A stretch of DNA of 7,705 nucleotides from positions 1-7,705 of the IMG/VR virus record IMGVR_UViG_2690316318_000009. One strand, written 5' to 3'. Within the stretch, counting starts at the first letter, position 1; every line of letters starts with the position of its first letter. Position numbers: made by a program. This DNA is from a virus. Its lineage: Duplodnaviria; Heunggongvirae; Uroviricota; Caudoviricetes. This document shows, in pieces, positions 6,001 to 7,705 of the stretch.

Positions 6001-7705
6001 GTGTGGTTGATGGTATGTTGATGATGTTGGATATCACACTTGAGATGGATTCGATTGTAATGGTATTTGATTAATATCATTTTTTTCAAAAGCGCGATAA
6101 AGAGAATAGCAGAGAATTATGAAATAATTGGGGTAAGTATGTTTAATAAGACAATTGTTTTAACTTTGCTAACATGTTTGTTTTGCTCTTCTGTCGCGGA
6201 TGCGAAGCGCGGTGGGCATAGGCGCTCATATCATCGTTCGCATACTTATCATTATAAAAATAATGAAGAGAGCAAACTAAGAACCTGCTCGGGAAGATAT
6301 GTTGATTATTATGGAGTTTGTGATGAAAAAATATGGAAAATAGTGAAAGTCCAAAACCTGTTACCACGAAAAAAAAGATACAAAAAGTAAGTGGTAAGGC
6401 ATCTAAAGTTGAAACTAGTTTATCTGACTCGCAAGTGAGAACCGTGTACCCACAGGAAAAGCCCAAACCTACTTGTGCTCCATTGTATATGGCTCACAAA
6501 CCTGGTTATACAAATTTGCCCATATGTGTTGATGGTCAATATTAATTACTTGGTTAGGTGTTTACGATCGTAAAAATCAGAGTATCCTGTTAAGAGTGGT
6601 TACTTCGCCACACAACTTAAACCCGCCTCTGAGCGGGTTTTGTCGTTTCTGAAGGATTTATATGAAAGAGATTAAAATTGCAGCACATCAATGTGTCTTA
6701 CCCGCTAGAATTCGATTTACATTTTCTACTTCTGGAGAAACTAAAGAAGAAGTGATTGAAAAGATGAGAATCGTCATCGATCAGCTTAGTAAAGACGAGG
6801 TCCATCTTGATCCATATGTACATCTTGAGAGTTATCTATCAGGCGTGAATATATCTTGCTCCCCCGCCTGATAGGTTAATTGTTTATTATTCCATTACCA
6901 TCTTGCCGATCTGTGCGGGAAGCGGGACAACATACTCCCAGAACGGTTCGTTAGAAGCGATGCCTGACCAGTACCAGATTGCTTTTGTGAAGATTATTGC
7001 TGCGTTATCTGTTAATGAATCAATGTCAAGAAGTCTCATATCACCACGGTGAATATTTGTATTATCACCTGCCAGTATTTCATAAATAGGTTGCGGCCCA
7101 TCGTGTTCACGATAATTTTCTCTAAAATAATTCGCATCCTCTATCTTTTCACAGGCGAATATTGACTGGTATCTGGATGGTTTTGTTGGGAACTGAAGCT
7201 GACGAACCAGTTCAACAATAAGCTCCATGAGATCAGTGCTGGTTAGGTCTCTTCTCGGAAACAGGTATCGTAAACCATGTTCAGCGATTTTGAAATCAAA
7301 CTTCGCCCCAATAGGACCATCAACAATGTAGCTATCAGTTACAGGCGGCACTATAGAAGAAAAATTCATTAATGTATTTGCATTGTATCTGCCTCTTCTG
7401 TCAGCAGAATAAAGCACTATGCCCATTTAACTCTCCTGATTTGATGTAGTTACTTTTGGCGATGTAACGATATCAAGCGCGAGGTTATACCGCCAGATTC
7501 TTAATCTGGCACTTCATCTGGCCCGGGTATGTACCGGTTTTTTTATTTAAGGCCGCTGACAGGTCCATTTAGTGCAACGTCTTTCCCCGTTTCCGCTCCT
7601 GGAATATTCGGGGATTTTTTATTCCCTCAATTTGCACCCGCGATATGTGCGAGGTGAGAGATGATGAAATGCCTCATAACCCAAATACCTGGCCGGACTG
7701 GCTGG

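What the first reader, a model, noticed from the sequence alone, without database searches (positions are those of the whole stretch)
6662..6890. Convergent small ORF facing the 179-aa gene: possible partner or antisense regulator
The 69-aa + strand ORF ends 15 nt from the stop of the 179-aa minus-strand gene, so the two transcripts must terminate within, or read into, each other's 3' ends. I see no strong terminator hairpin between 6871 and 6887. Convergent overlap allows mutual antisense control, as in some type I/III toxin-antitoxin-like and abortive-infection loci. The small protein has no signal peptide and no recognisable fold.
Basis: inference. Interest (0 to 1): 0.45.

Follow-up and report, generated by a model that had tools for sequence, protein, structure and literature searches.

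The report
Prophage gene pair: ART-like enzyme plus small partner
The 69-codon ORF is a real, conserved gene that always travels tail-to-tail with a reverse-oriented ADP-ribosyltransferase-like gene (DUF2441) in lambda-like prophages, a layout that matches recently described "defence gene plus self-immunity gene" pairs, although its function is untested.

Summary
ORF 6662-6871 (+, 69 aa) and gene 6887-7426 (-, 179 aa, Pfam DUF2441, ADP-ribosyltransferase clan) converge with 15 nt between their stops and no terminator.

The small ORF is a real gene: dN/dS is 0.09-0.36, changes favour third codon positions, and indels are in frame. It has no relatives outside this cassette among 1.84 billion representative proteins.

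All 33 loci with this DUF2441 clade (Escherichia albertii, Salmonella, metagenomes) carry it 11-15 nt away. They span four Q-antiterminator families and three holin families, so this is a mobile two-gene cassette between Q and the holin. DUF2441 is mutated or lost in several lineages while the small gene stays intact, never the reverse. A second DUF2441 clade (35% identity) sits at the same site with a different convergent small ORF.

The small gene starts 21 nt after a late-strand terminator hairpin, so it should need Q antitermination. The same transcription then runs antisense through DUF2441.

Best reading (inference, about 0.4): a prophage-expressed ART-like effector and a late-made neutraliser, like phi80 Tai/Ati and 80alpha Tha/Ith but unrelated in sequence. 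Defence activity, inhibition and transcript overlap are untested. Interest is moderate.

The parts
6619..6649 (+). Intrinsic-terminator-like hairpin (AAACCCGCC-TCTGA-GCGGGTTT, 6619-6640) followed by a T-rich tail. It lies on the late-operon strand, immediately upstream of the small gene.
   Evidence: Terminator scan. Folding gives -13.1 kcal/mol on + and -17.8 kcal/mol, z -3.4, on -. The same hairpin and tail, with a varied loop, sit directly before the small ORF in L003, L005, L007, L012 and L030 (also flagged in L005). Homologous sequence occurs in phages phiP27 and cdtI.
6651..6656 (+). Shine-Dalgarno-like GAAGGA, 5 nt before the ATG of the small gene.
   Evidence: Read from the sequence. 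SD-like purine runs are also present before the ORF in the other variants.
6662..6871 (+). 69-aa protein-coding gene. It is an orphan family (phrog_11414) with a predicted beta-alpha-...-beta shape and an invariant C-terminus GVNISC(S/A)PA. It is the proposed late-expressed partner or neutraliser of the DUF2441 protein.
   Evidence: ORF. dN/dS 0.09-0.36, third-position bias and in-frame indels. Only its own cluster was found in 1.84e9 representative proteins. PHROG hit E 6.5e-27. AF2 model. Exact protein found on 45 E. albertii contigs.
6872..6886 (.). 15-nt AT-rich spacer between the two stop codons, too short for a hairpin.
   Evidence: The spacing is 15 nt in window, L001, L002, L005-L010, L012-L017 and L030, and 11 nt in L011, L028 and L029.
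6887..7426 (-). 179-aa DUF2441 protein (Pfam PF10386, ADP-ribosyl/ART clan; phrog_5663). It is reverse-oriented relative to Q and the holin. It is the proposed prophage-expressed effector.
7433..7437 (-). AGGAG ribosome-binding site of the DUF2441 gene.
   Evidence: Read from the minus-strand sequence. Conserved in the upstream alignment.
7449..7474 (-). Conserved 26-nt element GATATCGTTACATCGCCAAAAGTAAC, ending 22 nt before the DUF2441 ATG. It is probably a promoter/5' leader or a recombination linker, and many reverse-oriented cargo genes upstream of holins share it.
   Evidence: Conserved in all cassette variants and in E. coli C311. Exact matches in 68 IMG/VR contigs, placed 8-25 nt (mostly 21-23) before the first in-frame ATG of at least 7 unrelated cargo genes. 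A holin lies 160-180 nt away on the other side in about 50 of 68. No canonical -10 hexamer was found.
7492..7510 (.). Perfect 8-bp inverted repeat GCCAGATT-CTT-AATCTGGC just upstream of the 26-nt element. It may be an operator or a hairpin.
   Evidence: Fold -10.9 kcal/mol, z -6.2. Conserved in most contexts of the 26-nt element.
7523..7546 (+). Weak hairpin plus T7 run on the late strand, just beyond the cassette. It corresponds to stronger late-strand terminators at the same place in other backgrounds.
   Evidence: Sequence. The fold is weak here, -8.4 kcal/mol, z 0. The analogous site is a strong terminator in L005 (9 pairs, 6 GC). The consensus GCCCCGG..CCGGGGC+T run is seen. A further terminator-like site lies at 7597-7613.
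7669..7705 (+). Start of a lambda-S-family holin gene (MPHNPNTWPDWL...), cut off by the window end. It marks the downstream late/lysis genes.
   Evidence: 93-98% DNA identity to regions annotated 'phage holin, lambda family' in more than 1000 E. coli genomes. The full ORF is seen in related loci.
5640..6074 (+). Late-gene antiterminator Q (PF06530). It defines the direction of late transcription that would pass through the cassette.
   Evidence: Pfam E 8.7e-54.

Best explanation
The window is part of an Escherichia albertii lambdoid prophage. Positions 6619-7476 are a mobile two-gene cassette (a moron) inserted between the late antiterminator gene Q and the holin gene.

Shown: (1) The 69-aa ORF is a genuine protein-coding gene under purifying selection. 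(2) It is inherited as a unit with the convergent 179-aa DUF2441 gene, a member of the ADP-ribosyltransferase fold clan, with 11-15 nt between the stops and no terminator. (3) The small gene lies on the late-operon strand and starts 21 nt after a terminator hairpin, while DUF2441 lies antisense to that operon behind a conserved 5' element of its own.

Inferred: In the lysogen DUF2441 is transcribed from its own signals and acts as a prophage-borne effector. The most likely role is anti-phage or abortive-infection activity through NAD-dependent modification of a target. The small gene stays largely silent behind the terminator. After induction, Q-modified RNA polymerase reads through the terminator, which has two effects. 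It makes the 69-aa protein, which binds and neutralises the cognate DUF2441 protein. It also runs head-on and antisense through the DUF2441 gene, lowering its expression. The prophage thereby escapes its own effector during lytic growth.

This is the logic of the 'noncontiguous operon' defence/counter-defence pairs Tai/Ati (phi80) and Tha/Ith (80alpha), carried out here by unrelated proteins.
For: Coding signature: dN/dS is 0.09-0.36 over six variants (56-99% identity). Substitutions fall mainly at third positions, for example 12/3/26 and 20/12/43. Lengths of 68, 69 and 72 aa differ by in-frame indels. The invariant C-terminus is encoded with synonymous differences.

Co-inheritance: dS of the small gene tracks dS of DUF2441 for the same pairs (0.90 vs 0.82; 0.33 vs 0.25; 1.29 vs 1.15). 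All 33 loci with clade-I DUF2441 (at least 71% identity) carry the small ORF in convergent orientation. NCBI accession numbers are adjacent in at least 8 genomes.

Mobility as a unit: DNA homology spans window 6620-7476. It occurs with four Q families (PF06530, DUF1133-type, PF03589, PF06323) and three holin families. The cassette is absent from 5,426 complete E. coli genomes even though its flanks are present in more than 1,000.

Specificity: a profile search of 1.84e9 representative proteins finds only the small protein's own cluster.

Asymmetric decay: DUF2441 carries a nonsense codon in L002 and a 1-nt deletion in L029/L057. It is replaced in L003/L004, with the breakpoint inside its 3' end. 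N-terminally truncated and in-frame-deleted forms occur on many Salmonella contigs. The small ORF is intact wherever its DNA was read here (L002, L003/L004, L029/L057, L038/L055); the N-truncated and 111-aa Salmonella forms are known only as protein sequences. No locus has an intact DUF2441 with a broken or absent small ORF.

A parallel pair: a DUF2441 clade with 35% identity (same phrog_5663) sits at the same site behind the same 5' element. It has a different 85-aa convergent ORF whose stop overlaps by 4 nt. The two co-occur in 10 of 10 IMG/VR contigs.

Late-operon placement: the terminator hairpin and T tail directly before the small ORF are conserved across backgrounds. Late-strand terminators are also found beyond the cassette.

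ART clan: Pfam hit, clan listing in PMC7955679, and R85/S88/E164 invariant down to 31% identity and aligned to 2AUA.

Other temperate phages carry DUF2441 genes at accessory, often reverse-oriented, positions. A DUF2441 gene has measurable transcripts in uninduced S. Typhimurium (PMC9867438).

Experimental precedents for the architecture: PMC11364771 and PMC11087260.
Against: There is no functional evidence at all, and neither protein matches any PADLOC defence model.

Neither protein is homologous to Tai/Ati or Tha/Ith.

The geometry differs from phi80. There the small gene follows the antisense gene and their 5' ends overlap. Here it precedes the antisense gene and the 3' ends abut.

More distant DUF2441 genes (KP12, Gordonia Yeezy, L020, L022, L023) have no recognisable small partner. 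The enzyme therefore does not universally need one.

Strict co-occurrence within one clade may simply reflect common descent.

L003/L004 show that the small gene persists without DUF2441. That fits an antidote but equally fits an independent function.

No canonical sigma-70 promoter was found for DUF2441, and pR' was not located in this window.

Homology between the two small-partner families is only hinted at (hhalign probability 18%).
Confidence: 0.4

Rival explanations
1. The two genes are independent neighbours. The 69-aa protein is an ordinary small late-phase accessory protein with its own function. DUF2441 is an unrelated lysogenic-conversion moron. They co-occur only because they have been adjacent since a common ancestor, and recombination rarely falls in a 15-nt gap.
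For: All co-occurring loci belong to one DNA-homologous lineage. The small gene persists with a different neighbour in L003/L004. Distant DUF2441 genes lack it. The slot upstream of the holin accepts many unrelated cargo genes behind the same 26-nt element.
Against: dS between variants reaches 1-2, yet the pair was never separated with DUF2441 left intact. The cassette moved as a unit among four Q and three holin backgrounds. A second, 35%-identical DUF2441 clade independently has a tightly abutting convergent small ORF. The small protein has no relatives in any other context.
Confidence: 0.25
2. It is a toxin-antitoxin (addiction) module. DUF2441 would be an ART-like toxin and the 69-aa protein a constitutively made protein antitoxin that stabilises the prophage, independent of the lysis-lysogeny switch.
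For: Several ART-clan families are toxins paired with cognate antitoxins (DarT/DarG, RES/Xre, ParT/ParS; established knowledge, with the clan listing in PMC7955679). The decay pattern of toxin lost and antidote kept matches what is seen here.
Against: The genes are convergent, not co-transcribed. The small gene has no room for a promoter of its own between the terminator and its start, so constitutive antitoxin supply is hard to explain. The small protein has no DNA-binding or antitoxin domain. Neither protein matches PADLOC models, although PADLOC is a defence-system library rather than a dedicated TA one. Many DUF2441 genes stand alone.
Confidence: 0.12
3. The small protein is a positive partner of the DUF2441 enzyme, such as an activator, specificity subunit or sensor, rather than an inhibitor.
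For: The evidence is the same as for the best explanation: tight linkage, parallel divergence and an orphan distribution.
Against: Opposite strands and opposite expected expression windows make joint action unlikely. The small gene survives where DUF2441 is dead or gone, which is not expected of a dedicated cofactor.
Confidence: 0.08
4. The region acts only at the RNA level. The '69-aa ORF' would be a fortuitous frame within the 3' UTR or terminator region of the DUF2441 mRNA, or an antisense RNA gene in the manner of type I or type III toxin-antitoxin systems.
For: The two transcription units must overlap because no terminator separates them. The hairpin at 6619-6640 also folds well on the minus strand (-17.8 kcal/mol), so it could end the DUF2441 mRNA after it has crossed the whole small ORF.
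Against: There is strong protein-level selection in the + frame: low dN/dS, third-position bias, in-frame indels, and an invariant peptide motif encoded by synonymous codons. There is no Rfam match. No tandem-repeat array is present apart from one 12-nt, 1.9-copy match at 7500-7522, outside both genes. The 179-aa product is not a small hydrophobic toxin.
Confidence: 0.03

Closest known systems
Tai/Ati of coliphage phi80 (tail assembly inhibition and its counter-defence; PMC11364771)
   Same: Both are in a lambdoid prophage. In both, an accessory gene lies antisense inside the Q-dependent late operon with an adjacent small gene (76 aa in phi80) on the late strand. In phi80 the antisense gene is expressed in the lysogen, Q expression lowers its level, the small late product restores phage production, and cognate pairs bind each other.
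   Different: There is no sequence relationship: phi80 gp52/gp51 are phrog_5483/20632 with no DUF2441 hit. In phi80 the pair lies after the lysis genes, near the packaging genes, and the two genes overlap at their 5' ends. Here the pair lies between Q and the holin, and the genes abut at their 3' ends with the small gene first. The effector here is ART-like, not a tail-assembly inhibitor. Nothing has been tested here.
Tha/Ith of Staphylococcus aureus phage 80alpha (HEPN RNase and its small antisense-encoded inhibitor; PMC11087260)
   Same: Both pair a prophage defence gene with a small inhibitor gene on opposite strands, giving overlapping transcription. [quoted passage not shown]
   Different: In 80alpha the defence gene sits in the cI (lysogeny) operon, and the small inhibitor is the antisense gene with its own promoter. 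Here the larger gene is the antisense one and the small gene belongs to the late operon. The protein families and the host phylum also differ.
BstA/aba of Salmonella prophage BTP1 (PMC8585504)
   Same: Both would be a prophage-encoded abortive-infection function with a closely linked self-immunity element in an enterobacterial lambdoid or P22-like prophage (abstract).
   Different: The BstA immunity element is a DNA sequence inside the gene, not a protein. There is no homology and the genome position differs.
ART-clan toxin-antitoxin pairs (DarT/DarG, RES/Xre, ParT/ParS)
   Same: The larger protein belongs to the same Pfam fold clan (PMC7955679). A small cognate neutraliser is a plausible partner.
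   Different: Those pairs are co-directional operons whose antitoxins have recognisable domains (macrodomain, HTH). Here the genes are convergent and the small protein is an orphan. ART activity of DUF2441 has never been shown. The solved structure 2AUA is annotated only as a hypothetical protein.
Classical lambdoid morons
   Same: Both are an accessory unit of lower G+C (0.39-0.41 against 0.48-0.55 in the replication/nin region). It is present or absent between conserved late-region landmarks and is flanked by terminator-like sites.
   Different: This one is a two-gene convergent unit, with one gene belonging to the late transcript and the other antisense to it, rather than a single promoter-gene-terminator unit.

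Membership tests
Pfam DUF2441 (PF10386), ADP-ribosyl (ART) clan: applies to the 179-aa partner gene | Match to the family HMM above the curated gathering score | tested here: met
   28.8 bits against a cut-off of 25, E 1.4e-6, residues 61-154. Homologues carry a precomputed PF10386 hit. phrog_5663 E 1e-53.
Pfam DUF2441 (PF10386), ADP-ribosyl (ART) clan: applies to the 179-aa partner gene | Relationship to the family's solved structure (2AUA, BC2332) | tested here: met
Pfam DUF2441 (PF10386), ADP-ribosyl (ART) clan: applies to the 179-aa partner gene | ART catalytic constellation (R/H ... S/Y ... E) and NAD+-dependent transferase activity | tested here: inconclusive
   R85, S88, D129 and E164 are invariant down to 31% identity, and R85 and E164 align to 2AUA. 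No characterised ART was recovered by the fold search. Clan placement rests on Pfam as cited in PMC7955679. Enzyme activity cannot be tested here.
Prophage defence/counter-defence 'noncontiguous operon' pairs (Tai/Ati, Tha/Ith) | One gene lies antisense within a phage operon and has its own upstream signals | tested here: met
   DUF2441 is on the opposite strand to Q (5640-6074) and the holin (7669 onward), here and in all related loci. A conserved 5' element and RBS lie upstream.
Prophage defence/counter-defence 'noncontiguous operon' pairs (Tai/Ati, Tha/Ith) | An adjacent small gene on the operon strand is strictly co-inherited with the antisense gene | tested here: met
   33 of 33 clade-I loci and 10 of 10 clade-II viral contigs. 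dS values are parallel.
Prophage defence/counter-defence 'noncontiguous operon' pairs (Tai/Ati, Tha/Ith) | Sequence homology to the described proteins | tested here: not met
   phi80 gp52/gp51 have no DUF2441 hit and belong to different PHROGs. tblastn of the window proteins against 50,697 phage records did not hit phi80. Homology to 80alpha Tha/Ith was not compared directly. The window is therefore an analogue, not a family member.
Prophage defence/counter-defence 'noncontiguous operon' pairs (Tai/Ati, Tha/Ith) | The antisense gene protects the lysogen against other phages, and the small product inhibits it during the prophage's own lytic cycle | not testable with these tools
   No PADLOC match. 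This needs plating assays, deletion and induction experiments, and interaction tests.
Prophage defence/counter-defence 'noncontiguous operon' pairs (Tai/Ati, Tha/Ith) | Reciprocal expression in lysogeny and lysis, with overlapping transcripts | not testable with these tools
   The only evidence is positional. A terminator lies 21 nt before the small ORF's start codon and none lies between the genes.
Type I toxin-antitoxin | A small hydrophobic toxin peptide whose mRNA is controlled by a non-coding antisense RNA | tested here: not met
   The 69-aa product is hydrophilic and under protein-level selection. The 179-aa product is a soluble enzyme-like protein. No Rfam family matches.
Type III toxin-antitoxin (ToxIN-like) | A tandem array of antitoxin RNA repeats upstream of, and co-directional with, the toxin gene | tested here: not met
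   No repeat array is present in 6400-7705. The only hits are a 12-nt, 1.9-copy match at 7500-7522 and a T-run pair. The genes are convergent.
Type II toxin-antitoxin | A co-transcribed bicistronic operon with a DNA-binding antitoxin | tested here: not met
   The orientation is convergent. The small protein has no HTH, RHH or AbrB domain. Toxicity itself was not tested.
Lambdoid moron | An accessory unit that is present or absent between conserved phage genes, with deviating composition and its own transcription signals | tested here: met
   The flanks are present in more than 1,000 E. coli genomes and the cassette in none. G+C is 0.39-0.41 against 0.48-0.55. Terminator-like sites flank it. 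The promoter is only inferred.

The most novel reading that the evidence does not exclude
DUF2441 proteins would be an unrecognised family of ART-fold, prophage-borne anti-phage (abortive-infection) effectors. Each enterobacterial clade would have co-evolved its own tiny late-expressed protein inhibitor. The terminator-less tail-to-tail arrangement just downstream of tR' would be a built-in lysogeny/lysis toggle: Q-antiterminated transcription makes the inhibitor and silences the effector by head-on antisense transcription. In addition, the shared 26-nt element upstream of the holin would define a general plug-in expression slot for reverse-oriented prophage cargo.
Probability: 0.3. Interest if true: 0.65.

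Novelty: new member of a known kind. Interest (0 to 1): 0.45.

Why it matters
If the model holds, it gives a first functional handle on DUF2441. This ART-clan family has had a crystal structure since 2005 and still has no known function. It would also add a third, mechanistically distinct example to the very short list of prophage defence genes with a cognate self-immunity gene. That would suggest a simple genomic signature for finding more: a small late-strand ORF abutting a reverse-oriented cargo gene between Q and the holin. The orphan 69-aa protein would then be a candidate specific inhibitor of an ART-like enzyme. If the model fails, the locus is still a clean case of a small ORF, annotated in its source genomes only as a hypothetical protein, that is demonstrably a real gene.

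Tried and rejected
1. Megablast of 6000-7705 against 5,426 complete E. coli genomes and 50,697 phage records found only the flanks. The cassette itself is absent. tblastn of the small protein against phages found nothing.

2. The genome-contig scan with the DUF2441 alignment returned only two distant Clostridia loci, because that collection holds one genome per species. Their context was uninformative.

4. The AlphaFold2 model of the small protein from 5 sequences reached pLDDT 58. Foldseek against BFVD and an HMM search against the PDB gave no meaningful match.

5. Remote homology between the two small-partner families was tested with hhalign. The result was probability 12-18% and E about 1e-3 over 32-33 columns, which is suggestive only and is not claimed.

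6. I considered a complex prediction using a linker fusion of the two proteins but did not submit it.

7. I looked for a canonical sigma-70 promoter for DUF2441 and for pR' in the window. None passed the scan, and the promoter counts are at or below the shuffle expectation.

8. Searches for tRNA genes, Rfam families, and tandem or inverted repeats around the pair found only a 12-nt, 1.9-copy tandem match at 7500-7522 and a T-run direct-repeat pair.

9. The 53-aa convergent ORF next to the distant DUF2441 in L020/L021 showed no similarity to the 69-aa protein, by tblastn of both small-protein variants against all fetched loci and by inspection of its sequence.
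Full report
**Observation**

The window contains a + strand ORF at 6662-6871 (ATG, 69 aa) and a - strand ORF at 6887-7426 (ATG, 179 aa). Their stop codons are separated by 6872-6886, which is 15 AT-rich bases. The terminator scan finds nothing in or next to that interval. Folding 6850-6945 on either strand is no better than shuffled sequence (z -1.4 and -0.5). The small protein has no Pfam, NCBIfam or PADLOC match. A 69-codon ORF is common by chance, since this window has 47 ORFs of at least 40 aa. The question is whether it is conserved.

**Context**

The window is a segment of a lambdoid prophage. It contains:
- nin-region genes;
- a lambda-type Ser/Thr phosphatase;
- an LpxR-family outer-membrane protein on the minus strand (4170-5129);
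- the late antiterminator Q (5640-6074, PF06530, E 9e-54);
- at the right end, the start of a lambda-S-type holin (7669 onward).

The exact 69-aa protein occurs on 45 contigs of Escherichia albertii. The pair therefore lies in the classical moron position between Q and the lysis genes. Its G+C is 0.39-0.41, against 0.48-0.55 in the left part of the window. Megablast shows that the flanks (6467-6641 and 7441-7705) are present in more than 1,000 of 5,426 complete E. coli genomes, but the pair itself is in none.

**The small ORF is a real gene**

Homologues of the 69-aa protein form only four 90% clusters (99, 94, 80 and 62% identity). Two further variants were read directly from related loci. 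One is 72 aa and the other is a second 69-aa form. Across six variants:
- dN/dS is 0.09-0.36;
- differences concentrate at third codon positions, for example 12/3/26 and 20/12/43 by codon position;
- length differences (68, 69, 72 aa) are in frame;
- the invariant C-terminus GVNISC(S/A)PA is encoded with synonymous differences;
- SD-like sequences precede every copy.

These values match those of the neighbouring gene, whose dN/dS is 0.10-0.27. A full HMMER profile search of 1.84 billion representative proteins returns only the protein's own cluster. It matches phrog_11414, a family of unknown function. The AlphaFold model is low confidence (pLDDT 58). It suggests strand 17-23, helix 28-43 and strand 62-68. 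No fold or PDB relatives were found.

**The partner gene**

DUF2441 genes also occur in other temperate phages at accessory positions:
- before the holin in Klebsiella phage KP12;
- between the tail genes and the integrase in Gordonia phages;
- reverse-oriented in the early operon of Streptococcus Javan prophages;
- reverse-oriented next to the terminase in L020.

**Linkage**

Every locus that carries a DUF2441 of this clade (at least 71% identity) also carries the small ORF in convergent orientation, 15 nt away (11 nt in the 72-aa variant). The count is 17 loci from assemblies, 15 IMG/VR viral contigs and the window, giving 33 of 33. NCBI protein accessions of the two genes are consecutive in at least eight genomes. 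DNA homology among these loci spans window 6620-7476.

The surrounding phages differ. There are four Q families (PF06530, DUF1133-type, PF03589, PF06323) and three holin families (PF05106, PF16931, PF16080). The two genes therefore move as one cassette. Synonymous divergence of the two genes is parallel for the same pairs of loci (0.90 vs 0.82; 0.33 vs 0.25; 1.29 vs 1.15).

**Asymmetric decay**

DUF2441 has been damaged or lost in several lineages:
- a CAA-to-TAA nonsense codon at Q112 in L002;
- a 1-nt deletion in L029 and L057, seen in 13 member sequences;
- replacement in Salmonella L003/L004, with the homology breakpoint about 40 nt inside its 3' end;
- in Salmonella, N-terminally truncated (155 aa), 111-aa and in-frame-deleted (175 aa, loss of FPEK next to R85) forms on tens to more than 100 contigs.

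In the disrupted loci whose DNA I read (L002, L003/L004, L029/L057 and the in-frame-deleted L038/L055) the small ORF is intact; the other Salmonella forms were seen only as protein sequences, without their neighbours. I found no locus with an intact DUF2441 and a broken or missing small ORF. This is what an effector/antidote pair predicts. The sample is small, and the pattern also fits an independently useful small gene.

**A second, parallel pair**

In E. coli C311 and ten IMG/VR contigs, the same site upstream of the holin holds a 170-aa protein. It is 35% identical to the window's DUF2441 and falls in the same phrog_5663 at E 1e-57. It is also reverse-oriented, behind a nearly identical 5' element. 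It is met by a different convergent ORF of about 85 aa, whose stop overlaps it by 4 nt. That small family is conserved in E. coli, Salmonella and Providencia (56-85% identity). It co-occurs with its DUF2441 clade in 10 of 10 viral contigs, including a pair that has diverged to 63% and 71%. Profile-profile comparison of the two small families gives only a hint of homology over the first strand and helix (probability 18%, E 0.0014). More distant DUF2441 genes have no recognisable partner.

**Transcription geometry**

Directly upstream of the small ORF lies a terminator-like hairpin with a T-rich tail (6619-6649; -13.1 kcal/mol), followed by GAAGGA and the ATG at 6662. This leaves no room for a promoter. 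The same hairpin and tail, with a varied loop, precede the small ORF in L003, L005, L007, L012 and L030. Related sequence lies between the Q region and the downstream late-strand genes in phages phiP27 and cdtI. From established knowledge of lambdoid late control, genes behind such terminators are expressed when Q-modified polymerase reads through.

Beyond the cassette, late-strand terminator-like sites recur. The one at 7523-7546 is weak, there is another at 7597-7613, and the equivalents in L005 and in the consensus of related loci are strong.

DUF2441 has an AGGAG site (7433-7437) and a conserved 26-nt element (7449-7474), but no canonical -10 hexamer was detected. No minus-strand terminator lies between 6887 and 6290. 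The 6619-6640 hairpin also folds well on the minus strand (-17.8 kcal/mol, z -3.4), but its T tail there is poor and is not conserved in L005. Any DUF2441 transcript must therefore cross the whole small ORF in antisense. Any antiterminated late transcript must cross the whole DUF2441 gene in antisense.

**Interpretation**

The architecture matches two experimentally dissected systems.

In phi80, the defence gene taiEcA sits antisense inside the Q-dependent late operon and is expressed in the lysogen. Q expression lowers its level. The adjacent small late gene atiEcA prevents autoimmunity, and cognate Tai and Ati proteins bind each other (PMC11364771; gene layout).

In S. aureus phage 80alpha, the HEPN RNase Tha and its small inhibitor Ith are encoded on opposite strands with overlapping transcription. 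This makes their expression mutually exclusive between lysogeny and lysis (PMC11087260).

I therefore propose that DUF2441 is a prophage-expressed ART-like effector, and that the 69-aa protein is its late-made neutraliser, with head-on antisense transcription as a second layer of control.

What is shown: the gene is real, the pair is linked, and the strand and terminator layout is as described. What is inferred: the defence role, inhibition by the small protein, and the timing of expression.

There is a weak indication that DUF2441 genes are transcribed in uninduced cells. A DUF2441 locus appears in a S. Typhimurium RNA-seq table (PMC9867438), although I could not check that it belongs to this clade.

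Points against the model:
- no PADLOC match;
- no homology to Tai/Ati;
- the geometry differs from phi80 (3'-3' abutting with the small gene first, against 5'-5' overlap with the small gene second);
- many DUF2441 genes stand alone.

I put the full model at about 0.4, independent neighbours at 0.25, a classical addiction toxin-antitoxin module at 0.12, a positive cofactor at 0.08, and an RNA-only role at 0.03.

The partner hypothesis survives its stated refutation test. The antisense-overlap observation is right. The analogy to type I/III toxin-antitoxin systems fails on defining features:
- the small element is a protein rather than an RNA;
- there is no RNA repeat array;
- the toxin candidate is not a small membrane peptide.

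**Verdict**

This is a real and previously uncharacterised two-gene prophage cassette, most likely a new example of the defence plus self-immunity 'noncontiguous operon' kind, built from unrelated proteins. It is of moderate interest (0.45) and gives a clear, cheap experimental path.

Noticed in passing
window 7449-7474 (minus strand); L084-L151: A 26-nt element, GATATCGTTAMATCGCCAAAAGTAAC, ends 22 nt before the DUF2441 ATG. It occurs exactly in 68 IMG/VR contigs, placed 8-25 nt (mostly 21-23) before the first in-frame ATG of unrelated reverse-oriented cargo genes. These are DUF2441 clades I and II, a 53-aa MSEKNKPQ... protein (about 30 contigs), a 92-aa MASFTVRVEL... protein, a 67-aa zinc-ribbon protein, and 148-aa and 165-aa proteins. 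A holin lies 160-180 nt away on the other side in about 50 of the 68. It looks like a shared promoter/leader or recombination linker that defines a plug-in slot for cargo upstream of the holin. No canonical -10 hexamer is evident.
   Followed up: partly
L033:1723-2489 (E. coli C311); L063-L082: A second DUF2441 clade (170 aa, 35% identity, same phrog_5663) lies at the same site. It has a different convergent 85-aa ORF whose stop overlaps by 4 nt, and the two co-occur in 10 of 10 viral contigs. Homology between the two small-partner families is only hinted at (hhalign probability 18%).
   Followed up: partly
L002:831-1370; proteins P0038, P0039, P0040, P0047, P0048: DUF2441 is recurrently inactivated. 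Two different alleles (L002 and Salmonella P0040) both end after G110-P111, meaning a stop at codon 112. A 4-residue in-frame deletion (FPEK, next to invariant R85) is on 110 contigs. Forms starting at M25 are on more than 40 contigs. Why the same codon is hit in two alleles is unexplained.
   Followed up: partly
window 6845-6871: The last nine residues of the small protein, GVNISC(S/A)PA, are invariant across all variants despite synonymous DNA changes. The C-terminal C-x-x-A resembles a eukaryotic CaaX prenylation box. This is probably a coincidence or a binding strand, and it was not tested.
   Followed up: no
window 7492-7510: A perfect 8-bp inverted repeat, GCCAGATT-CTT-AATCTGGC (z -6.2), lies just upstream of the 26-nt element. 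It is conserved in most contexts of that element and may be an operator.
   Followed up: no
window 4170-5129 (minus strand): A 319-aa LpxR-family outer-membrane protein (lipid A deacylase family, Pfam E 7e-40) with a signal peptide is encoded in reverse orientation. It sits in a low-G+C island (0.30-0.41) between the phosphatase gene and Q. This is a second reverse-oriented moron and might remodel lipid A in the lysogen.
   Followed up: no
window 6067-6545: Two unassigned + strand ORFs lie between Q and the 6619 terminator. One is 107 aa, or 83 aa from the internal Met, with a signal-peptide-like start MFNKTIVLTLLTCLFCSSVADA and an Arg/His-rich mature part. The other is a 70-aa Lys/Pro-rich ORF. 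Neither has a family match. The late promoter pR' was not located in this 545-nt stretch.
   Followed up: no
L063:2801-4140: In one IMG/VR contig an IS10-type end (CTGATGAATCCCCTAATGATTTT...) is inserted exactly at the junction between the clade II small ORF and its DUF2441 gene. It separates them by about 1.3 kb.
   Followed up: no
L003:939-1442 and L004:379-942: In Salmonella serovar Kisangani the small gene (94% identical) is followed by a co-directional ORF of unknown function (167 aa in L003, 187 aa in L004) in place of DUF2441. About 40 nt of the DUF2441 3' end are retained.
   Followed up: partly
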